Positions 2,172-11,074 of a stretch of 64,000 nucleotides of DNA are shown in pieces. The DNA is taken from positions 64,001 through 128,000 of the IMG/VR virus record IMGVR_UViG_3300034101_003554; one strand, written 5' to 3'. The notes below the pieces were generated by a model, which worked only from the letters and a program-made list of their open reading frames with translations, searched no databases and was not told the origin of the DNA. A program made the translations under genes and the position numbers. Every line of letters starts with the position of its first letter. The first letter of the stretch is position 1. This stretch comes from a virus.

Positions 2172-2206
2172 AAAAAACCCCTTCTTAACGGAGGGGTTTC
2201 TTTTTT
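2172..2206. terminator. Bidirectional terminator shared by ORF 1854 and the tmRNA
   Basis: AAAAAACCCCTTC-TTAAC-GGAGGGGTTTCTTTTTT. Confidence 0.8.
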
Positions 2207-2209
2207 AAA

Positions 2210-2590
2210 GGTGGAGGTAGAGAGATTTGAACTCTCGTGTTGTCCGTTTTAACTATTAAGGACTACATGTTTAGGACAACATTATTCGCAGTGTTCCGAG
2301 CTATTTGATTTTTATACACCCAAAATCAACAAAATCGGTCAATTCATTTTTAGGGATGAGAATTGATTAGACAACCCTATAGTGCTCCTGTTCCTGAGTT
2401 AATGCACCCCGACTCGAAAGTAATACCCTATTAACTAGGCTACTACTGCTTCTTCAGCACGGATTAAACCTACTGCAGAAAGTTTGTTGATAACGTTGCC
2501 GTGTATCGTTTCAAACCAGTTTAACAGACTTAGTTTAGGTCTGACATGCCCCAAATAACTAACAACGTCAGTCAATTCCAGATTACCCCC
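2210..2590 (-). ncRNA. ssrA: tmRNA; predicted tag (A)GNVINKLSAVGLIRAEEAVVA* at 2500-2435
   Basis: 5' GGGGGTA pairs with 3' TACCTCC-A, giving the G3.U70 alanine identity; D-loop-like GGAATTGAC; T-arm GAGAG-TTCAAAT-CTCTC; GCATG/CATGTAG helix; pseudoknot CAGAC/GTCTG plus TAAAC/GTTTG just before the resume codon. Confidence 0.93.
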
Positions 2591-2669
2591 TTTTGTAAAG
2601 TACTACAATAATAAATATAATGATTGATAATTCCAAGTTTTGATTATATTTATTTTAATAAAAAAATGT

Positions 2670-4040
2670 ATGGATTATTCTAATAACGATATATTGTTTG
2701 AAAATGACAAATACTTGGCCATTAAATCTCCAAATATGGAAGAGGGTTTAAAAGTAGGTCCAGAATTCTTAACAACAACAAGACATGGTAAAGATGTCTA
2801 TAATAATAGAACAGTATACTTTTTCATTAATAAAGAAGAAAAAGATACTAGATATGGAATTATAACTCTAGCATTTGGAGAATATTTTGAAGTCTATGAT
2901 AATTATGGCGATGATATTCAATTAAGGGATGCTTTCCATTATTTTCCAGATTTAGATAAAACAATTACAGACATAGTCGGTAATGTTGATTTAATAACAA
3001 CATTAATCTTGATTGAGCAGGGGAAAGAATTTGATAAATATAAATTACAGAGGATAGATTCTAATATTGATTATATACAATATAATAAAAAAGTACCAGC
3101 TAATAGTAAAATTTATTTAGAATTTAATGGTGACGCAGGTATTTTGAGTTTAATGGATTTTAATAGTGATGATCTTTATTATATTAATGCTGTTTTAAGT
3201 AGATATGGATATAGTTCTAATTTATGGGAAGGAGATACAGATTACGATTGGAAAGAAGGTAATTTATTACATTATTTTAATGATGGAAGTAATAAACTTT
3301 TGGATAAAATTGTTTCATATATTAAACCTGAATTTTTTAATTGGAGGGATGATTATAATATAAAGGGTGAATTATGTGAATTATTATATAATCAATTTGA
3401 TAATGAAATAAGTAGAATACTAGACGATTATAGTAATCATTATGAACAAGCTGGGATTAATGCACTAAAAGAAGAATTATATAGTGATTTTTGTAATCCA
3501 TTTGATGGATATCAAATACATGTTGTTAAAAGAAATGAAATAGTTAGATGTTTTTATGAATATCGTACTTGGGTTTCACAATTAAAAGATTTATTAATCG
3601 CGACTAATACTAGTACTATTGAAGAGTTGATAACAAAATTATCTGAGTTCGTTGGTGGTGGTTTAAGAACTGAGATTTACGAGTATCCATATCGTGGTGA
3701 ATTTGACACAGAATCTTTTAATAGAGAAGTTGAATACGAACTTGAAAATATAATTGATAAGATTGAAGAAAATCCTGAAAAATATTCCAAGAATCTTAGT
3801 GAGAATTTAAAATTAATACAAATAATTAAAAAGTATCAATTGAATACTCCTGTCAAAATTGATGATGAAAGAGGTTCATTTATTATCACAGGAATTAAAG
3901 ATGGAAAACTTCTTGTAACACACATTAAAAAGAATGGTGAAAAAACAAACAAGAGTTTCAATTTTGAAGAATTTAATAATTTTATGTCAATGGGTGAATT
4001 ATTTGAACATTTAGTTAGAAAATTAAAAAGAATGTTGTAA
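2670..4040 (+). CDS. Hypothetical acidic phage protein (start corrected to ATG 2670)
   Basis: Long ORF; ATATTTAT at 2646-2653; ends LFEHLVRKLKRML. Confidence 0.75.
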   Translation: MDYSNNDILFENDKYLAIKSPNMEEGLKVGPEFLTTTRHGKDVYNNRTVYFFINKEEKDTRYGIITLAFGEYFEVYDNYGDDIQLRDAFHYFPDLDKTITDIVGNVDLITTLILIEQGKEFDKYKLQRIDSNIDYIQYNKKVPANSKIYLEFNGDAGILSLMDFNSDDLYYINAVLSRYGYSSNLWEGDTDYDWKEGNLLHYFNDGSNKLLDKIVSYIKPEFFNWRDDYNIKGELCELLYNQFDNEISRILDDYSNHYEQAGINALKEELYSDFCNPFDGYQIHVVKRNEIVRCFYEYRTWVSQLKDLLIATNTSTIEELITKLSEFVGGGLRTEIYEYPYRGEFDTESFNREVEYELENIIDKIEENPEKYSKNLSENLKLIQIIKKYQLNTPVKIDDERGSFIITGIKDGKLLVTHIKKNGEKTNKSFNFEEFNNFMSMGELFEHLVRKLKRML

Positions 4041-4049
4041 TATTGTGTT

Positions 4050-4865
4050 ATGAAACACAATTACGATTTACTCAAAAAGGTTTTGTCCATACCTACCAAG
4101 ACATACAAAGAGGACTTAATGATTCAATTCCTAGGTGAATGGTTAACAGAAAACAACATCCCTTATCAAGTTGATAAGATGGGTAATGTTTATGCGACCA
4201 AACAAACGAATGATATTGAATATTTCCCCTGTGTTGTTGCACATACCGACACAGTACACGAATTGGATACAATCAACATTAAAGAAATGATGTTACCCAA
4301 TGACCAAAAAGAATTAAAACCAGCATTAAAGGCTTTTAATGATAAAGGAGAACCCACGGGTATTGGTGGGGATGACAAATGTGGTGTTTATGTATGTTTG
4401 GAATTATTGAAAAATTTACCAAATGTAAAAGCCGCATTTTTTGTCTCAGAAGAAACTGGTTGTCACGGGTCAAAGAATGCTGATAAAGAGTTTTTCTCAA
4501 ATGTTGGTTATGCTATTCAATTTGACGCTCCAGGTAATTGGATGGTTAGTGAATATTGTATGGGAACAAAATTATTTGATAAGAAGTCTGAATTCTTCAG
4601 CAAATGTGACAAGGTGTTAACTGAGGGATTTGATAACCGAAACAAATACCAATCACATCCTTATACTGATGTTTATGCTCTTAAAAATCAATTTGATTTT
4701 TCTTGTATAAATTTTGCTGTAGGATATTATAACTACCACACAAAACATGAATATGTGATTGTTGAGGATGTTTTTAATACATTGGATATTGCAAAGAAAA
4801 TGATTAATGATTTGGGTAGTGTGAAATATTTTGAGGAAGTTAAATCAAGTAAATTTTTACTATAA
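4050..4865 (+). CDS. Zn-dependent peptidase, M20/M28/M42 clan
   Basis: AHTDTVH, GGDDKCG, SEETG, QFD and YHT metal-ligand motifs. Confidence 0.85.
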   Translation: MKHNYDLLKKVLSIPTKTYKEDLMIQFLGEWLTENNIPYQVDKMGNVYATKQTNDIEYFPCVVAHTDTVHELDTINIKEMMLPNDQKELKPALKAFNDKGEPTGIGGDDKCGVYVCLELLKNLPNVKAAFFVSEETGCHGSKNADKEFFSNVGYAIQFDAPGNWMVSEYCMGTKLFDKKSEFFSKCDKVLTEGFDNRNKYQSHPYTDVYALKNQFDFSCINFAVGYYNYHTKHEYVIVEDVFNTLDIAKKMINDLGSVKYFEEVKSSKFLL

Positions 4866-4893
4866 AAAAAAGGGACTATTCAGTCCCTTTTTT
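4866..4893. terminator. Bidirectional terminator overlapping the clpC stop codon
   Basis: AAAAAAGGGACT-ATTC-AGTCCCTTTTTT. Confidence 0.8.
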
Positions 4894-6906
4894 CTTTTTT
4901 GATTTTTTAACTTCTTTTTCTTTAAACACTATGTTTTCTTCATTGGTTGTGAGTTCATATTTTTCATTCTCAGCAACATTTCCGTTAAGTACTTCCTCCG
5001 ATATGAAATCTTCAATTTTGTCTTGTATGGCTCGTTTTATTGGCCTTGCACCATACGTTTCATCAAATCCAACTTTTGATATTAAATCATAAACAGATTC
5101 ATCACAAGTTATATTATAATTTAATCCATTCAATCTATTAATTAATTTTTCAATTTCAAGTTTTACAATTTGTTTAACTTCTTCTTCTTTCAAAGTATTA
5201 AATACAATAATTTCATCAATACGATTTAAGAACTCTGGGGCAAAAAACTTTTTAAGTTCTTTCTTAAGCATATCCCTTTTTTCTTCTTCCTCAATATAAG
5301 AATTTGAACTTGTTTTAAATCCAACACCAGTTCCAAATTCTTGGAATTTTTTAACCCCAAGATTGGAGGTCATAATTATGATACAATTTTTGAAATTGAT
5401 TTTTCTTCCCAATCCATCAGTAAGATGTCCATCATCCAACACTTGAAGTAATGTTGAGAATACATCTTTATTCGCCTTTTCAATTTCATCAAATAGAATA
5501 ACTGAATATGGTTTATTTTTAACTTGTTCAGTTAATTGTCCACCTTCATCATAACCAACATAACCTGGAGGTGAACCAATCAATCTTGATATTGAATGTT
5601 TTTCTTGGAATTCTGACATATCAACTCGGATAAGGTTTTCTTCACTACCGAATATTTCTTTGGCCAATTGTTTTGCTAAATACGTTTTACCCACACCAGT
5701 TGAACCCAAGAAAATAAATGAACCTATAGGTTTACTTGGGTCTTTGATACCAAGTCTATTTCTACGGATTGATTTGGCAATTTTGGATACAGCTTCAGAT
5801 TGACCAATGACTTTGGAAGATAGATTATCAGCCAATGATGAAAGTTTATTTGTTTCATCTGAGTTCATTTTTGATACGGGTATTTTGGTCATATTAGATA
5901 CAACTTCATATACCAATTCAAATGAAATATCTTTCTTCTTGGTTAATAAATCAGATTCAAATTTTTTCTTTTCTGATTCTAATTTATCCAATATTTTTGT
6001 TTCTTTATCTCGTAAATCTGCAGCTTGTTCATAATTTTGACTTTTAACAACCTCAATCTTTTGTTGTTTAATATCCAACGCTTGAAGTTTCAAGTCTTCA
6101 ATTATTTTAGGCATTTTTATTTCCACTTGACTTCTTGCTCCAACTTCATCAATAATGTCAAAAGCTTTATCAGGGAATTCTCTATCTGTGATATATCTTT
6201 CAGCCAAATCAACACAAAGTTTTAGAATATCATCACTATAATTTACTTTATGATAATTTTCATATTTGTCTTTAACATTAATTAGTATCTGTAAGGTTTC
6301 TTCTTTTGTAGATGGGTCAACAATTACTTTTTGGAAACGTCTTTCTAATGCCCCATCTTTTTCAAAATTCTTTCTATATTCATCCAATGTTGTCGCACCA
6401 ATACATTGTATTTCACCCCGGGCCAAAGCTGGTTTAAATATGTTTGAGGCATCCAATGAACCTGATGAATTCCCAGCACCAACAATTTGGTGTATTTCAT
6501 CAATGAAAAGAATTATGTTTGGGGCAGATTGTAGTTCTTCAATGATAACTTTCATTCTTTCTTCAAATTGTCCACGATATTTTGTTCCCGCAACAATAGA
6601 TGTCATATCCAAAGACATAATTCTTTTATCCATCAAATTTCTTGGACATTCCCCATTCAATATTTTTAAAGCCAAACCTTCCACTATGGCAGTTTTACCA
6701 CAACCAGGTTCACCTATTATGATTGGGTTATTCTTTTTTCTTCTTGATAATATTTGAGCAATTCTTGTTATTTCTCTATCTCTACCTACCACGGGATCTA
6801 ATTTTCCTTCTTCGGCAAGTTTGATTAAATCCTTTGCAAAGTTATTTAACACTGGGGTATCACCTTTACCTTTTGTTGAGTAATCTCCATCTTTTGATTC
6901 TATCAT
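4876..6906 (-). CDS. clpC: ClpC-type AAA+ unfoldase lacking the N-terminal repeat domain
   Basis: Two NBDs (GEPGCGKT/FIDEIH; GSTGVGKT/LFDEIEKA); pore loops KYRG and GYVG; UVR-type M domain (QNYEQAADLRD); VGF ClpP-docking loop; begins directly at TPVLNNFAKDL. Confidence 0.92.
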   Translation of the reverse strand: MIESKDGDYSTKGKGDTPVLNNFAKDLIKLAEEGKLDPVVGRDREITRIAQILSRRKKNNPIIIGEPGCGKTAIVEGLALKILNGECPRNLMDKRIMSLDMTSIVAGTKYRGQFEERMKVIIEELQSAPNIILFIDEIHQIVGAGNSSGSLDASNIFKPALARGEIQCIGATTLDEYRKNFEKDGALERRFQKVIVDPSTKEETLQILINVKDKYENYHKVNYSDDILKLCVDLAERYITDREFPDKAFDIIDEVGARSQVEIKMPKIIEDLKLQALDIKQQKIEVVKSQNYEQAADLRDKETKILDKLESEKKKFESDLLTKKKDISFELVYEVVSNMTKIPVSKMNSDETNKLSSLADNLSSKVIGQSEAVSKIAKSIRRNRLGIKDPSKPIGSFIFLGSTGVGKTYLAKQLAKEIFGSEENLIRVDMSEFQEKHSISRLIGSPPGYVGYDEGGQLTEQVKNKPYSVILFDEIEKANKDVFSTLLQVLDDGHLTDGLGRKINFKNCIIIMTSNLGVKKFQEFGTGVGFKTSSNSYIEEEEKRDMLKKELKKFFAPEFLNRIDEIIVFNTLKEEEVKQIVKLEIEKLINRLNGLNYNITCDESVYDLISKVGFDETYGARPIKRAIQDKIEDFISEEVLNGNVAENEKYELTTNEENIVFKEKEVKKSKKKKGTE

Positions 6907-6990
6907 ATTTTTCTTTTTAATTAATTATAATATTTATTTTTACATTTTCAACTATGATAAACTGACAATTTGTTAATATTATTTTTATTC

Positions 6991-7019
6991 TTGACTAGTT
7001 AATTTAATTGATATATAAT
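6991..7019 (+). promoter_or_regulatory. sigma70-like promoter for the UVR-domain gene
   Basis: TTGACT-N17-TATAAT; a divergent TTGAAA-N16-TATAAT (6951-6924) precedes clpC. Confidence 0.6.
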
Positions 7020-7061
7020 TGAATTATAACAATAAAAATAAACTTTAAAAAATATATTATT

Positions 7062-7496
7062 ATGAACGGAAAAGATTTTCATAAAAGATTCGAGGAATTT
7101 TTCAATCAATTTTTCAATCAAGACAATCAAAAATTTAATACGCCTATGGATGGATTTTTAAAAGCATTAAATCCAGATGACATTTCAAAAGAAATGAAGA
7201 AATATAGAAAATCGATTAAAGAATCTAATGATGGGTTATTTACAACTATTAGTTTCATTTTTACTAATCCACCATTTAGTGATAAGAGTGAAGCTAATGA
7301 GTTGAAATCTAAATTAGATGAATGTGTATCAAATCAAGATTTTGAGGAAGCAGCAAGATTAAGAGATAAAATTAAAGAACTTGAAAATAACTCATCTAAG
7401 GTTAAAGATTTGAAAAAAGAGTTAGATATTGCAATTAAAGAACAAAATTTTGAAAGGGCAATTGAAATCCGAGATGAATTAAAAAAAATAAACTAA
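7062..7496 (+). CDS. Protein with two tandem UVR (UvrB/UvrC, McsA-like) coiled-coil motifs
   Basis: LDECVSNQDFEEAARLRDKIKEL and LDIAIKEQNFERAIEIRDELKK. Confidence 0.88.
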   Translation: MNGKDFHKRFEEFFNQFFNQDNQKFNTPMDGFLKALNPDDISKEMKKYRKSIKESNDGLFTTISFIFTNPPFSDKSEANELKSKLDECVSNQDFEEAARLRDKIKELENNSSKVKDLKKELDIAIKEQNFERAIEIRDELKKIN

Positions 7497-7500
7497 TCAT

Positions 7501-7525
7501 AACCCCTCGTAATTGAGGGGTTTTT
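7501..7525 (+). terminator. Intrinsic terminator
   Basis: AACCCCTC-GTAATT-GAGGGGTTTTT. Confidence 0.75.
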
Positions 7526-7538
7526 AAATTTAAAAATT

Positions 7539-7781
7539 ATGGCAATATTAAGAGAAGAAATCAGAGGTACAAAAATTATTAATGAAATTCAGTCAAGTAA
7601 TATTAGAAAGACAGAATTTGATACAGAATCAAAAGAGTTAATTGTGGAATTTAACAACGGACTCATATATTCCTATGAAAATGTTCCTCATCAATTGTAT
7701 ACCCAATTTAGGATGTCGGAATCCCAAGGTAAGTTTTTTAATTCCAAAATAGCAAAAGTATATAAATACAAAAGATTGTGA
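7539..7781 (+). CDS. KTSC-domain protein
   Basis: SSNI…D…LIVEFNNG.IYSYENVP…SQGKFFN pattern. Confidence 0.88.
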   Translation: MAILREEIRGTKIINEIQSSNIRKTEFDTESKELIVEFNNGLIYSYENVPHQLYTQFRMSESQGKFFNSKIAKVYKYKRL

Positions 7782-7813: not shown

Positions 7814-9760
7814 ATGGAAAGTTTAAATAAAGTCATATCTAGTTTTAAATTAAATTCAACATTACAACCAAAAATTTGGATTGATGGGGGTTCAAAAATA
7901 AATCCAAATGTTAGAAAAAATTTATTAGAAATAGCATATCAATTCATTGATTCCTTTGGGATGGATGTTGTAATTGATGATATCATAGTAACAGGTTCAA
8001 TTGCAAATTATAATTGGTCAGAGTATTCGGATGTTGATTTACATATTTTGGTAGATTACAAACAGTTTTCAAATAAACTTAAAGATATGTATGTTGAATA
8101 TTTTGATTTAAAAAAAATAGTTTTTAATCAAAAAAGAGACATAAAAATGTTTGGTTATGAGGTTGAGGTTTTTGTTGAAGATACTGATGTAAAAGGTGTA
8201 AGTGGTGGTTTGTATTCTGTATTAAATGATGAATGGATAAAAAAACCAACAAAAGAATCTGTTAAAATTTCAAAAGAAGAAATTATTAAAGGGGCTAAAA
8301 AATGGATGAGTATTATTGATACTTTGATTAAAAACTCTGACGATGATGATATTGAAGGTATTCAAAGTAGTGTTAAAAATTTAAAAAACAAACTCAAAAA
8401 GTTTAGATTAAGTGGTCTTAAGGAAGGAGGTGAGTTAGGGTTACAGAATTTAATATTCAAAGTTTTAAGAAGAAATGGGTATATTGAAAAACTTTATTCA
8501 ATTCCATTACAAAAAATAGATAAAAAACTTTCAATTAAAGAAATTACATTATCATCTCCACTTGAAAACTTGGAGGTTGCTGCTAAATTTGGCGTTGTTA
8601 GACCTGGATTGGATACTACAAGACCACATTCTGGTACAGATTTTAGAGCAAGTACTGGTACACCAATTTATGCCCCAGCTGATGGAACAATAGTTAAAGC
8701 TGATATGGGTGAAAATGGTGGATGTGGGGGTTCAATATTCATTGAACATAGTGATGGTTTAGAAAGTCGATTCTGTCATAGTAGTAAAATTATGGTGAAT
8801 GTTGGTGATATAGTTAAAAGAGGTGAAGTTGTAGGACTTGTAGGTGGTGGACAAGGTGACCCAGGTAGAGGGTTTTCAACAGGTTCACATTTACACTATA
8901 CTTTAGTCAAAAATGGTGAATTGGTTGACCCTATTGACTATATTGATAAAGATTTTGATATACCAAATATTGAGGCTGAAGAATATGAGGCGACAGAATT
9001 AAATATATCTTTAGATAAAATATCCGAAATAAAGGAAAAGATATATGATTATGATTCTAGTTTAGAAGACAATGATGACCCTGAAATTTTGGAGGATTCT
9101 AAACAAAGTAAATTTATGTCAGATTTTTTAAAAATGGTTAAAAGTGATATTGATGTATCTGAAGATGATAAAATTATTACCAATAATCCTGAAGTTGAGC
9201 AAATACAAATAGCTTTACAATTTTTAGAGTATTTAGATTTAAATTATGGTATTGATGGATTTTATGACGAAAAAACAATAAATGCTTTAAATGAATTTAG
9301 AGATGATTTTGATTTACCAAAAACAAGTGAAATAAATAAAGATGATTTATTATATATGTACTATTTGTTATTATACAAATTATTTGATGACACAAAATTA
9401 TCTAGAATAAACAAAACAATTAATTTTGATGAGTTAAAAATAACAAATATAAATAATTTTTATCAAATGGTTTTAATTACTATTGGGGCTGATATAACAT
9501 ATAATAATGTTAATTTTTTAAATGCTTGGAATGATGCAACTTCAATTGGGGGTGAAGAAAATCCATTTGGGTTACCATATAAGAAAGAAAAAAATATATC
9601 AAGTCCTTTGTATAATACAATAGATATTTTAAACACTGTTGAATATAGTTGTGTTAGATTTGGTTTAACAAAAAATAAAAAAATTGATGAAATTTTAAGT
9701 TGTCCTATATTTAGGACTAATGATTTAAAAGAAAAAATTAAAAATTTTTTACATAAATAA
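7814..9760 (+). CDS. Fusion: Pol-beta-type nucleotidyltransferase + M23 peptidase + peptidoglycan-binding-like domain
   Basis: TGSIANYNWSEYSDVDLH (GS…DxD); HSGTD…HLH; VEQIQIALQFL…IDGFYDEKTINALNEF. Confidence 0.8.
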   Translation: MESLNKVISSFKLNSTLQPKIWIDGGSKINPNVRKNLLEIAYQFIDSFGMDVVIDDIIVTGSIANYNWSEYSDVDLHILVDYKQFSNKLKDMYVEYFDLKKIVFNQKRDIKMFGYEVEVFVEDTDVKGVSGGLYSVLNDEWIKKPTKESVKISKEEIIKGAKKWMSIIDTLIKNSDDDDIEGIQSSVKNLKNKLKKFRLSGLKEGGELGLQNLIFKVLRRNGYIEKLYSIPLQKIDKKLSIKEITLSSPLENLEVAAKFGVVRPGLDTTRPHSGTDFRASTGTPIYAPADGTIVKADMGENGGCGGSIFIEHSDGLESRFCHSSKIMVNVGDIVKRGEVVGLVGGGQGDPGRGFSTGSHLHYTLVKNGELVDPIDYIDKDFDIPNIEAEEYEATELNISLDKISEIKEKIYDYDSSLEDNDDPEILEDSKQSKFMSDFLKMVKSDIDVSEDDKIITNNPEVEQIQIALQFLEYLDLNYGIDGFYDEKTINALNEFRDDFDLPKTSEINKDDLLYMYYLLLYKLFDDTKLSRINKTINFDELKITNINNFYQMVLITIGADITYNNVNFLNAWNDATSIGGEENPFGLPYKKEKNISSPLYNTIDILNTVEYSCVRFGLTKNKKIDEILSCPIFRTNDLKEKIKNFLHK

Positions 9761-9826: not shown

Positions 9827-11074
9827 ATGGGAAATTTAAAACCTATCGGTAGTGAAAAATTACAAGGTATAGACAAAATAAAAAGAATGATTGAGATTTC
9901 ACAATATAATCTTAATATTCCACAACCAATCAATGAAGTAACATCAAATGAATTTAAAAAAACATTGTCAGATGGTAACACATATCACATTGTAAAAGAA
10001 AAAAGTGGATATGTTTTAAAGAAAGGAATTAATGAATCTACTGCAGAATATATTGAACCTATAAAAAATAGAAAATATTATCCATCATATTCGCAAGCAT
10101 TAAAAAGACTAAATCTAATAATTAAAGAAGTTAATTCATTGACTGGTTATGATAATAATTTATCATTATTTAATGAGTCTGATGATGTCAAATATTTTTT
10201 GAAATACGGAGAACAAACAGAACAACAACAACCAGCAGGTAGACAACAACCAGCGCCAGCCCCACAACCAGCACCAGCTCCACAACAACCCGCACCTGCA
10301 CCAGCTCTACAACAACCAGCACCATCTGTTGATGGTGAACCTGAGATTGATACAGATATAGACTCTGAAATGGACACTGATATGGATATGGGTGATGAGG
10401 CAGATATGGAAGAACCTATGGATGATACTAGCGGAGAAAAAGAAGAAGTCGTAACATATAAAACAATCCAAAAATTGGTGGGTAAATTAGGACAAAAAAC
10501 AAGAGAATTTTTGTCTAATGAAGAAAATCAAATGGATTCAAATCAAATAAAATATGTTATTAATTCTATTTTATCTGCATTGCCCTTAGATTCACTAGAA
10601 GAAGAAGACAGAGAAGAAATTATGTCAAGTTTTGAAGGTGGTGAAGAAGAAGAAGGTGATATGACTGATATTAGTGGTGAAGAAATGCCTGATATGGGTG
10701 ATGAAGAAGGTTACGAACAAGAACCTATGGATCAACTACCACCACCCCCTCCAGCACCAGAAACTGCGGAATCGTATCACCATAGAAAGATGGGTAGTAG
10801 AAATATAAAAGATAGAACAGATAGGATGAAAGAAGTTATTGAAAATGTTTTTTCTGAATCAAAAGTTGATAGAGTTTTAAAAAAATATTTCAAAAATAAC
10901 AATTTAGCTAAAATTAAAAATTTAACAGAATCATATAAACAAGAAAAAGCGGTATCAAACTTTATGGATAATAATCCAAATGCTAAATTTTTGGGAAAAA
11001 CTTCAAAAGGTCAAATGGTATTTGAAGTTCTCAATGAGAGGTTTTATATTTTTGCAAATGGTAATGTTATATGA
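9827..11074 (+). CDS. Hypothetical head/core-associated protein with P/A/Q and D/E/M low-complexity tracts
   Basis: Position before the terminase; several [ILV]xE sites; QQPAPAP repeats. Confidence 0.65.
   Translation: MGNLKPIGSEKLQGIDKIKRMIEISQYNLNIPQPINEVTSNEFKKTLSDGNTYHIVKEKSGYVLKKGINESTAEYIEPIKNRKYYPSYSQALKRLNLIIKEVNSLTGYDNNLSLFNESDDVKYFLKYGEQTEQQQPAGRQQPAPAPQPAPAPQQPAPAPALQQPAPSVDGEPEIDTDIDSEMDTDMDMGDEADMEEPMDDTSGEKEEVVTYKTIQKLVGKLGQKTREFLSNEENQMDSNQIKYVINSILSALPLDSLEEEDREEIMSSFEGGEEEEGDMTDISGEEMPDMGDEEGYEQEPMDQLPPPPPAPETAESYHHRKMGSRNIKDRTDRMKEVIENVFSESKVDRVLKKYFKNNNLAKIKNLTESYKQEKAVSNFMDNNPNAKFLGKTSKGQMVFEVLNERFYIFANGNVI

What the first reader, a model, noticed from the sequence alone, without database searches (positions are those of the whole stretch)
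2210..7781. Clustered ribosome-rescue and proteolysis module: tmRNA, Zn peptidase, ClpC lacking its N-domain, double-UVR protein, KTSC
Seen: within 5.6 kb lie ssrA, an M20/M28-clan peptidase, a ClpC with intact ATPase, pore and VGF motifs, a UVR partner and a KTSC protein. No ClpP is present in the window. Inference: a tag-unfold-degrade-recycle pathway that borrows host ClpP and SmpB and gives the phage its own quality control or targeted destruction of host proteins. With bS21 it would form a translation take-over kit.
Basis: partly seen in the sequence, partly recalled or inferred. Interest (0 to 1): 0.72.

Follow-up and report, generated by a model that had tools for sequence, protein, structure and literature searches.

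The report
Phage tmRNA beside N-domain-less ClpC
A giant lake phage really does carry, within 5.6 kb, its own ribosome-rescue RNA with an unusually long tag, a ClpC protein unfoldase lacking its regulatory head, a zinc exopeptidase and two small proteins, but related phages keep these genes far apart or lack some, so a dedicated tag-and-destroy pathway is plausible and testable, not shown.

Summary
They are a full-length tmRNA (2209-2590, minus strand), an MH-clan PepT-like peptidase, a ClpC without its N-domain, a double-UVR protein and a KTSC protein. The tmRNA's 21-codon tag is kept in frame in 38 relatives.

The order tmRNA-orf-peptidase-ClpC-KTSC holds in about 80 related contigs of one clade of roughly 320-kb lake phages. 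Two complete members have no ClpP, yet the ClpC keeps the ClpP-docking [VILM]GF loop. Both complete members encode SmpB about 95 kb away, so SmpB is probably not borrowed.

The linkage is specific to this clade:
- In five more distant phages with both genes, tmRNA and ClpC lie 81-212 kb apart.
- Six near-complete ClpC phages have no tmRNA.
- The UVR protein is missing from complete clade members.
- The genes lie on both strands, with terminators between them.

Two things keep the coupling idea alive. One distant phage has DnaJ-ClpP-tmRNA-peptidase on one strand. Published work shows that an engineered N-less ClpC with broken M-domain contacts degrades SsrA-tagged protein without an adaptor.

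Earlier notes of this scan describe the same module on other DNA many times.

Verdict: a new variant of known kinds, of moderate interest.

The parts
2175..2199 (.). GC-rich hairpin between the end of the upstream ORF (1854-2168, +) and the 3' end of the tmRNA; a terminator-like site usable from both sides
   Evidence: 10-bp stem followed by a T run; sequence
2209..2590 (-). One-piece tmRNA (ssrA). The acceptor stem GGGGGUA/UACCUCC has a G3:U pair. Only CC of the 3' CCA is encoded.
   Evidence: 83.8 bits, full model length; sequence read directly; homologues 67-99% identical in 61 related loci
2435..2500 (-). Tag reading frame of the tmRNA: GGC resume codon, 21 codons (GNVINKLSAVGLIRAEEAVVA) and a UAG stop. 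U-A lies at positions -5/-4 before the resume codon.
   Evidence: 19 distinct tags in 38 sequences, all in this frame, 21-22 codons, with synonymous changes and 3-nt indels. The U85/A86 frame-setting rule is from PMC2481249.
2670..4040 (+). ORF of 456 aa (466 aa from the TTG at 2640). No family or fold match. It evolves fast, lies 9 bp upstream of the peptidase gene and is probably co-transcribed with it.
   Evidence: no family; family found only in this clade, 23-31% identity where ClpC is about 80%; pLDDT 86 model, best Z 5.3
4050..4865 (+). MH-clan (M20/M28/M42) di-zinc exopeptidase, PepT-like catalytic domain without the lid/dimerisation domain
   Evidence: ligand and catalytic residues invariant
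4866..4893 (.). Hairpin terminator shared by the convergent peptidase and ClpC genes
   Evidence: 12-bp stem, T runs on both sides
4876..6906 (-). ClpC-type class I Hsp100 unfoldase lacking the N-domain. It has D1, an M-domain with a UVR motif (Y292 corresponds to S. aureus F436), D2, and the ClpP-docking loop VGF at about residues 528-530.
6907..7061 (.). Divergent intergenic region between ClpC and the UVR gene. It holds sigma-70-like hexamers on both strands, but such sites are no more frequent here than in shuffled sequence.
   Evidence: 42 sites found against 40.7 expected
7062..7496 (+). 144-aa protein with a variable N-terminal part and two UVR helical hairpins. Residues 75-143 resemble the M-domain of the phage's own ClpC.
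   Evidence: two UVR motifs; matches the McsA C-terminal motif only; 15 homologues; 34% identity over 70 aa, E 6e-5; helices 77-90, 94-126, 130-143; low confidence
7501..7522 (+). Terminator-like hairpin after the UVR gene
7539..7781 (+). 80-aa KTSC-domain protein. Of all the neighbours, it is the one kept next to ClpC over the widest range of relatives.
   Evidence: KTSC next to ClpC in 78 of 80 clade loci and 31 of 80 more distant loci

Best explanation
This is a real gene neighbourhood in one clade of roughly 300-320-kb lake phages. It holds auxiliary genes for ribosome rescue and proteolysis, but it is not an obligatory single machine.

Shown:
- The tmRNA is complete and its long tag is under coding selection.
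- Complete relatives carry their own SmpB.
- The ClpC has working-looking ATPase and pore motifs and a conserved ClpP-docking loop. It has lost the N-domain, and the clade has no ClpP.
- The peptidase has an intact di-zinc site.

Inferred mechanism:
1. The tmRNA, with phage SmpB, frees ribosomes stalled during infection and adds a 21-residue tag ending in VVA. Host ClpXP-type proteases could read such an end. The pore of any Clp unfoldase, including the phage ClpC, could also read it.
2. The N-less ClpC docks on host ClpP without the adaptors that act through the N-domain. It then unfolds substrates recognised by its pore.
3. The peptidase trims the released peptides.
4. The double-UVR protein, where present, modulates M-domain contacts of ClpC.
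5. KTSC has an unknown role.

The adjacency reflects a shared theme and perhaps shared ancestry, not a strict dependence.
For: Parts:
- Component identities.
- Tag frame conserved through synonymous changes and 3-nt indels in 38 sequences, 19 variants.
- SmpB found in both complete relatives.
- No ClpP in the own contig, in two complete clade members or in eight partial ones.
- [VILM]GF docking loop in 125 of 126 unique phage ClpCs; G527, G529 and F530 invariant.
- Peptidase ligands invariant.

Loose linkage:
- Genes lie on both strands with three terminators between them.
- tmRNA and ClpC are 81-212 kb apart in G035, G038, G040, G044 and G047.
- No tmRNA over the cut-off in six near-complete ClpC phages.
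- UVR2 occurs in only 29 of 80 clade loci and is absent from the complete genomes G001 and G002.

A shared theme still recurs:
- G047 has DnaJ - x - ClpP - tmRNA - orf - orthologous peptidase on one strand.
- The peptidase lies 1.6-7.6 kb from ClpP in four of four sister genomes, and next to ClpC in this clade and in L174.

Published biochemistry (PMC12583610): N-less ClpC binds ClpP without an adaptor, and the SsrA degron is read by the pore, not by the N-domain.
Against: - No expression, binding or degradation data exist. No RNA run holds this DNA.
- The host, and so the compatibility of its ClpP, is not established here.
- In S. aureus, N-less ClpC alone is proteolytically inactive because it forms head-to-head rods (PMC12583610). 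The phage protein keeps an aromatic residue (Y292) at the contact position, so it may need an activator that I cannot identify in UVR-less relatives.
- Conserved adjacency across a clade in which the neighbouring ORF has diverged to about 25% identity could reflect selection for linkage. That would favour the tighter rival.
Confidence: 0.55

Rival explanations
1. A dedicated phage-private circuit. The long tag written by the phage tmRNA is recognised by the pore of the N-less phage ClpC docked on host ClpP. The double-UVR protein acts as an M-domain decoy that stops ClpC rings from pairing head-to-head and so switches the protease on. The peptidase recycles the products.
For: - Adjacency in about 80 related loci.
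- The N-terminal 14 tag residues (GN[VI][ILF][ND]K[LM][SA]x[VI]GL[IV]R) are more conserved than the C-terminal third, which suggests a specific reader.
- Tags of sampled Bacteroidota are only 8-10 aa and unrelated in sequence.
- Engineered N-less ClpC carrying F436A degrades GFP-SsrA as well as MecA-activated wild type, whereas N-less ClpC alone forms inactive rods through its M-domains (PMC12583610).
- UVR2 carries two copies of the F436-type tip motif (QDFEEAARLRD, QNFERAIEIRD). Its C-terminal half aligns to the ClpC M-domain.
- tmRNA lies next to ClpP and the same peptidase in G047.
Against: - tmRNA and ClpC are 81-212 kb apart in five other phages, and six near-complete ClpC phages lack tmRNA.
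- UVR2 is absent from complete clade members, and the slot between ClpC and KTSC holds unrelated genes or none.
- 16 other phage ClpP loci have no tmRNA within 6 kb.
- Tag ends such as VVA, VAA and MAA are close to ordinary ClpXP degrons (own knowledge).
- The genes form separate transcription units.
Confidence: 0.2
2. The phage ClpC and the UVR protein act on the host's protease system instead of on tagged proteins. The N-less ClpC occupies host ClpP, or mixes with host ClpC. The UVR protein binds host ClpC M-domains. Together they redirect or blunt host proteolysis to protect phage proteins or to destroy chosen host proteins. The tmRNA is an unrelated neighbour.
For: - A phage protein that modulates host ClpCP is documented for SPO1 (PMC6873191; seen by title and abstract only).
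- ClpC has lost its N-domain at least twice among phages.
- There is no phage ClpP in this clade although the docking loop is conserved.
- Small stand-alone UVR proteins occur far from ClpC in G035, G038 and G047.
Against: - Host identity, and whether the host has a ClpC, were not established here.
- No direct evidence exists for any target.
- This reading does not explain why the peptidase follows the Clp genes in several lineages.
Confidence: 0.1
3. ClpC works without ClpP, as an unfoldase, disaggregase or assembly chaperone for the very large virion. The peptidase serves virion maturation or nutrient scavenging.
For: - The cluster borders virion and lysis-type genes (the M23 fusion at 7814-9760).
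- In G044, ClpP and the peptidase lie among tail-tube and baseplate genes.
- A published review suggests that jumbo-phage ClpA and ClpX aid virion assembly (PMC7824862).
Against: The ClpP-docking tripeptide is kept in 125 of 126 phage ClpCs, including the clade that lacks a phage ClpP. Stand-alone disaggregases such as ClpB and ClpL lack this loop (own knowledge).
Confidence: 0.1

Closest known systems
Bacterial trans-translation with Clp degradation (tmRNA-SmpB; tag read by ClpXP or ClpAP, helped by SspB)
   Same: - One-piece tmRNA with an alanine-type acceptor stem (G3:U).
- U-A frame-setting bases before the resume codon.
- A tag ending in small hydrophobic residues plus Ala.
- An SmpB partner encoded in complete relatives.
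   Different: - The tag is 21-22 residues, against 8-10 in 33 sampled Bacteroidota tmRNAs, and is unrelated to them in sequence.
- It is phage-encoded.
- The neighbouring unfoldase is a ClpC, not ClpX or ClpA.
- No SspB-like adaptor was identified.
ClpC-ClpP of Firmicutes (S. aureus, B. subtilis) and the engineered N-less ClpC of Jenne et al. 2025 (PMC12583610)
   Same: - Aligns over residues 157-800 of S. aureus ClpC at E 1e-224.
- Has both AAA+ modules, the pore loops, an M-domain with a UVR motif, and a [VA]GF-type ClpP loop.
- The natural protein starts almost where the engineered deletion does and keeps a short flexible tail.
   Different: - It lacks the N-domain that defines adaptor (MecA, McsB/pArg) control.
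- Tyr replaces Phe at the M-domain tip (Y292 for F436).
- It is encoded by a phage without ClpP.
- The best cellular matches in my sample are only 45-50% identical.
tmRNA and SmpB genes of huge phages (Al-Shayeb et al. 2020, PMC7162821)
   Same: Phage-borne tmRNA and SmpB, together with other translation genes such as bS21.
   Different: That survey found tmRNAs with ARAGORN, which misses this one. It did not report tag length or linkage to Clp genes.
Clp-system genes of jumbo phages (ClpP, ClpS, ClpA, ClpX; Iyer et al. 2021, PMC7824862)
   Same: Phage-encoded Clp components thought to act on host or phage proteins. The review also notes KTSC proteins as possible translation or rescue factors.
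   Different: Here the component is an N-less ClpC, without ClpP, sitting beside a tmRNA. ClpC is not mentioned in that review (0 occurrences).
McsA and other UVR-motif partners of ClpC (chloroplast ClpF, own knowledge)
   Same: A small protein with a UVR helical hairpin encoded next to clpC. The best NCBIfam match is to the McsA C-terminal motif.
   Different: - No zinc fingers and no McsB kinase.
- Two UVR motifs.
- The score (41.5) is far below the McsA cut-off (210).
- Present in only part of the clade.
Peptidase T (M20B) and TET/M42 aminopeptidases
   Same: Shares the HxD, DDK, EE, D and YNYH metal and catalytic motifs, which align to PepT and FrvX.
   Different: At 271 aa it lacks the lid/dimerisation domain. 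All NCBIfam scores are far below the curated cut-offs.

Membership tests
tmRNA (Rfam RF00023) | Full-length covariance-model match above the gathering score | tested here: met
   83.8 bits against 47, model positions 1-374 of 374
tmRNA (Rfam RF00023) | tRNA-like domain with a G3:U70 alanine identity pair and a T-arm | tested here: met
   5' GGGGGUA pairs with UACCUCC at the 3' end, giving G3:U. T-arm GAGAGUUCAAAUCUCUC (read).
tmRNA (Rfam RF00023) | Internal tag reading frame with U-A at -5/-4, kept as a coding sequence | tested here: met
   19 tag variants in 38 relatives, all in frame, 21-22 codons, ending in Ala plus stop. The frame rule is from PMC2481249.
tmRNA (Rfam RF00023) | SmpB partner available | tested here: inconclusive
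   None in this 48%-complete contig. Present in both complete relatives, 113-138 bits.
ClpC (class I Hsp100 with ClpP loop) | Two AAA+ modules with Walker A/B motifs, pore loops and arginine fingers | tested here: met
   GEPGCGKT, ILFIDEIH, KYRG, GSTGVGKT, VILFDEIEKA and GYVG are conserved in 126 phage sequences
ClpC (class I Hsp100 with ClpP loop) | Short M-domain with a UVR motif between D1 and D2 | tested here: met
   PF02151 at residues 279-305. Aligns to the S. aureus M-domain, with Y292 opposite F436.
ClpC (class I Hsp100 with ClpP loop) | ClpP-docking [LIV]-G-F loop in D2 | tested here: met
   VGF; [VILM]GF in 125 of 126 sequences
ClpC (class I Hsp100 with ClpP loop) | N-terminal Clp_N repeat domain | tested here: not met
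   The alignment starts at S. aureus residue 157. Only 13 residues precede that point. 102 of 126 phage ClpCs lack the domain and 24 have it.
ClpC (class I Hsp100 with ClpP loop) | Physical binding to ClpP and proteolysis | not testable with these tools
   Needs biochemistry
McsA (protein-arginine kinase activator) | N-terminal zinc fingers, a C-terminal UVR motif and a partner McsB | tested here: not met
   Only the UVR motif matches (profile positions 137-176 of 182; 41.5 bits against a cut-off of 210). The sequence has one Cys and no CxxC motif.
MH-clan metallopeptidase (M20/M28/M42; PepT-like) | Co-catalytic metal ligands H, D, E, D, H plus a catalytic Glu | tested here: met
   H65, D108, E135, D159, H230 and E134 are invariant in 57-58 homologues. 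Motifs align to PepT and FrvX.
MH-clan metallopeptidase (M20/M28/M42; PepT-like) | Lid/dimerisation domain and family-level score | tested here: not met
   271 aa. The PepT matches fall at 135-192 and 366-396 of PepT, with nothing between them. NCBIfam scores are 15-35 against cut-offs of 255-400.
KTSC domain (PF13619) | Domain match above the curated cut-off | tested here: met
   63.3 bits against 25, profile positions 1-58 of 58
Dedicated tag-unfold-degrade operon | Co-transcription, or linkage kept in distant relatives | tested here: not met
   Genes on both strands with three terminators. tmRNA and ClpC lie 81-212 kb apart in five other phages.

The most novel reading that the evidence does not exclude
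Nature has built, in a phage, the same protein that biochemists engineered. It is an N-domain-less ClpC that docks on the host's ClpP and, once its M-domain contacts are capped by the neighbouring double-UVR 'M-domain decoy', becomes an adaptor-free protease. That protease would be specific for the phage's own 21-residue tmRNA tag. The phage would then own a private route that turns the products of stalled ribosomes into amino acids through the PepT-like peptidase.
Probability: 0.17. Interest if true: 0.8.

Novelty: new variant of a known kind. Interest (0 to 1): 0.5.

Why it matters
Phage tmRNAs and phage Clp genes are each known. How a phage uses them is not.

This clade offers a concrete, testable pairing. 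The tmRNA tag is conserved and twice the usual length. The ClpC has lost the very domain that keeps bacterial ClpC switched off and adaptor-dependent. Recent biochemistry shows that such a truncation can shift ClpC towards SsrA-type degrons.

If the coupling holds, it would be the first viral tag-and-degrade system and a natural example of M-domain control by a decoy protein. If it does not hold, the repeated loss of the ClpC N-domain in phages still points to deliberate deregulation of the host ClpP machine.

A practical point: ARAGORN misses this tmRNA, so surveys that rely on it may undercount phage tmRNAs.

Tried and rejected
- Complex prediction of ClpC residues 1-345 with the UVR protein (own alignments): score 0.15, below the mark. 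No verdict, so it is not evidence either way.
- AlphaFold2 model of the UVR protein: mean pLDDT 58. Only the secondary structure is usable, so I ran no fold search.
- The 456-aa ORF: no Pfam, PHROG or NCBIfam match. ESM Atlas look-alikes scored 0.81 or less and were uninformative. A confident model (pLDDT 86) gave no Foldseek match at E <= 0.001 and a best VIA Z of 5.3, which is in the noise range. Its function stays unknown.
- ARAGORN at default and relaxed settings finds no tmRNA here.
- Sequencing runs: no RNA holder is listed. The DNA is held by lake-water metagenomes of about 19 studies besides the probable source.
- Origin of ClpC: a genome-contig scan gave only 45-50% identical hits across many phyla, so neither donor nor host can be inferred.
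- blastn of the phage tmRNA against 33 Bacteroidota tmRNAs gave no hit. I did not verify the Bacteroidota host proposed in the scan's earlier notes.
- Sigma-70-like promoter matches are no more frequent than in shuffled sequence, so I drew nothing from them.
- tmRNA as a prophage integration-site remnant: rejected, because the gene is full-length with a conserved tag frame in lytic-type jumbo genomes.
- A literature search for the function of the KTSC domain found nothing useful.


Full report
**Setting.** The window is bases 64001-128000 of a 141-kb IMG/VR phage contig that CheckV rates 48% complete. G+C is about 28%. Near-identical DNA is held by lake-water metagenomes from about 19 studies besides the probable source. 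Complete relatives are 321-322 kb, one of them with terminal repeats.

**Observation.** All the named parts are present.
- Rfam finds a full-length tmRNA at 2209-2590 on the minus strand, 83.8 bits against a gathering score of 47. ARAGORN misses it even at relaxed settings.
- The acceptor stem (GGGGGUA/UACCUCC) has the G3:U pair that specifies alanine. Only CC of the 3' CCA is encoded.
- The other genes are a 456-aa ORF (2670-4040, +), a peptidase (4050-4865, +), ClpC (4876-6906, -), a double-UVR protein (7062-7496, +) and a KTSC protein (7539-7781, +).
- Terminator-like hairpins lie at 2175-2199, 4866-4893 and 7501-7522. The cluster is therefore several transcription units on both strands, not one operon.

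**tmRNA and tag.**
- Aligning the tmRNAs of 61 related loci (41 distinct sequences) fixes the frame: GGC AAC GUU ... GCC UAG, which gives GNVINKLSAVGLIRAEEAVVA.
- The 38 sequences I could parse give 19 different tags. All are in this frame and 21 or 22 codons long. They differ by synonymous or conservative changes and by 3-nt indels, and all end in Ala plus stop.
- U-A lies at -5/-4 before the resume codon in all of them. These match U85/A86 of E. coli, and A86 sets the frame (PMC2481249).
- The first 14 residues are more conserved than the last third.
- ARAGORN gives tags of 8-10 residues ending in (L/M)AA for 33 tmRNAs sampled from the phylum of a Bacteroidota MAG. None resembles the phage tmRNA by blastn.
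- Long tags are general in these phages. Five more distant phage tmRNAs encode tags of 21-26 residues that start with Gly and end in VVA, VAA, MAA or YAA.

**ClpC.**
- The protein aligns to S. aureus ClpC residues 157-800 at E 1e-224. Only 13 residues precede that point, so the N-domain is absent.
- In 126 unique phage ClpCs the Walker motifs, pore loops and arginine finger are conserved. The ClpP-docking tripeptide is [VILM]GF in 125 of them.
- 102 sequences lack the N-domain and 24 have it.
- In a FastTree phylogeny (midpoint-rooted, ten bacterial ClpCs falling outside), the phage sequences form one clade. The window's N-less group (59 sequences, long stem branch) is nested among N-domain-bearing phage ClpCs. 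The N-less group related to LR745206 forms a second branch. The N-domain was therefore lost at least twice.
- No ClpP is present in the own contig, in the two complete clade members or in eight partial ones. In contrast, 7 of 10 near-complete records of the other lineages have a canonical ClpP.
- A conserved docking loop in a clade without its own ClpP is best explained by use of the host's ClpP. This step is an inference.

**SmpB.** Both complete relatives encode SmpB (113 and 138 bits), about 95-100 kb from the cluster on the tmRNA side. In this contig that position lies beyond the end. 'Borrowed SmpB' is therefore probably wrong.

**Peptidase.**
- Pfam places it weakly in M42 and M28, and PHROG in 'peptidase'.
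- The best solved and curated matches are PepT and FrvX, through the DDK, EE and YNYH motifs. All are far below family cut-offs, and nothing matches where the PepT lid domain would be.
- H65, D67, D108, E134, E135, D159 and H230 are invariant in 57-58 homologues.
- I read it as an active di-zinc exopeptidase that consists of the catalytic domain only.

**UVR protein.**
- It has two UVR motifs. Fifteen homologues share these and a variable N-terminal part.
- Residues 75-143 align to the M-domain of the phage's own ClpC: 34% identity over 70 residues, E 6e-5.
- Both motifs carry the aromatic residue that corresponds to F436 of S. aureus ClpC.
- It is not McsA, because only the C-terminal motif matches.
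- It is also not a constant partner. Profile searches find it in 29 of 80 clade loci. The slot between ClpC and KTSC holds unrelated small genes or nothing in the rest. The complete genomes G001 and G002 have no UVR motif outside ClpC.

**Linkage.**
- Within the clade (ClpC 73-100% identical) the order tmRNA - ORF - peptidase - ClpC - (variable slot) - KTSC - M23 fusion is kept in essentially every contig long enough to show it. This holds although the 456-aa ORF has diverged to 23-31% identity.
- I then collected 80 loci around more distant phage ClpCs (52-60% identical). None has a tmRNA within 10 kb.
- Searching the whole records with the Rfam model found tmRNAs in five of them, 81-212 kb from ClpC. 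It found none over the cut-off in six near-complete records.
- The tmRNA-ClpC adjacency is therefore specific to one clade and counts as one evolutionary event.
- KTSC is the most persistent neighbour of ClpC: 78 of 80 clade loci and 31 of 80 distant loci. In those loci the M23 fusion and the next gene are syntenic too, so this may be backbone synteny.

**Signs of a shared theme.**
- In the complete 362-kb phage G047 the genes DnaJ, a small ORF, ClpP, tmRNA, an ORF, the orthologous peptidase (42% identical) and CoaE lie on one strand within 6 kb. Its ClpC is 181 kb away.
- The orthologous peptidase lies 1.6-7.6 kb from ClpP in four of four sister genomes, and next to ClpC in this clade and in L174. 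In G044, however, tail-tube and baseplate genes lie between them.
- 16 other phage ClpP loci have no tmRNA within 6 kb.
- The other four tmRNAs have unrelated neighbours: a nuclease, a phosphoesterase, a RimK-like ligase and an SLT domain.
- Of four tmRNA lineages, two have a Clp gene and this peptidase within 3 kb. By my rough estimate chance would give that about 2% of the time, but the estimate is post hoc and the sample is small.

**Mechanistic context from the literature.** Jenne et al. 2025 (PMC12583610) deleted the N-domain of S. aureus ClpC.
- The truncated protein binds ClpP without an adaptor. It then forms head-to-head ring dimers and long rods through its M-domains, and these are proteolytically inactive.
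- Adding F436A at the M-domain tip gives an autonomous protease that degrades GFP-SsrA as well as MecA-activated wild type.
- The SsrA degron is read by the pore, not by the N-domain.
- The phage protein is a natural counterpart of that truncation. It has Tyr at the tip position, and in this sub-clade it is flanked by a protein made of two tip-bearing hairpins.
The evidence is by analogy only. My complex prediction gave no verdict.

**What is known already.** tmRNA, SmpB and bS21 in huge phages were reported in PMC7162821. ClpP, ClpS, ClpA, ClpX and KTSC in jumbo phages were reported in PMC7824862. A phage adaptor-like protein that acts on host ClpCP is described in PMC6873191. I found no paper on N-less phage ClpC, on the long phage tags, or on their linkage. 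Earlier notes of this scan describe the same module on many other contigs, with conclusions similar to mine.

**Verdict.** The most likely reading is a clade-specific neighbourhood of related but separable auxiliary genes. These are tmRNA with phage SmpB for ribosome rescue, and an N-less ClpC working on host ClpP with a trimming peptidase. A private tag-to-ClpC route is a minority possibility, at about 0.2, and it can be tested directly.

Noticed in passing
window 2209-2590: ARAGORN fails to find this tmRNA, although it scores 83.8 bits with the Rfam model. The huge-phage survey PMC7162821 assigned tmRNAs with ARAGORN, so tmRNAs of this phage group may be undercounted.
   Followed up: partly
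L083 18795-19200 and L084 22259-22665: A GOLLD RNA (275-287 bits) with adjacent tRNAs lies 2-6 kb from the N-less ClpC gene in the 634-kb and 642-kb phages LR745206 and LR756502.
   Followed up: no
L247 5485-10963 (G047:C1:78434-83912): A one-strand block in a complete 362-kb phage: DnaJ, a weak phage-metallopeptidase-like ORF, ClpP, tmRNA, a 208-aa ORF, the orthologous MH-clan peptidase and CoaE.
   Followed up: partly
L248 10456-11916 and L249 10393-11850: A RimK-like ATP-grasp ligase (RimK modifies ribosomal protein S6 in bacteria) lies about 2 kb from the tmRNA in two 350-370-kb phages.
   Followed up: no
window 2670-4040: The 456-aa ORF gives a confident predicted fold (pLDDT 86) with no match in solved structures. 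Its family is confined to this clade and diverges far faster than its neighbours.
   Followed up: partly
window 7814-9760: A 648-aa fusion of a nucleotidyltransferase-like N-terminal part (SidM_N/NTP_transf_2, phrog_36119), an M23 peptidase and a peptidoglycan-binding domain. It is syntenic with ClpC and KTSC even in distant relatives.
   Followed up: no
window 9827-11074: A 415-aa protein with a PAPAPQ-type proline/glutamine tract and long acidic Asp/Glu/Met runs. It matches no family.
   Followed up: no
L028 9590-9931, L062 9556-9888, L070 9458-9904: In clade members without the UVR protein, the slot between ClpC and KTSC holds unrelated genes of 110-148 aa (one family contains ...EGWTE.DL..PPYYP.DIM...), or nothing (L040).
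   Followed up: no
L246 569-1048 (G044): A 159-aa protein of the UVR2 family lies about 7 kb from the tmRNA in a phage whose ClpC is more than 200 kb away.
   Followed up: no
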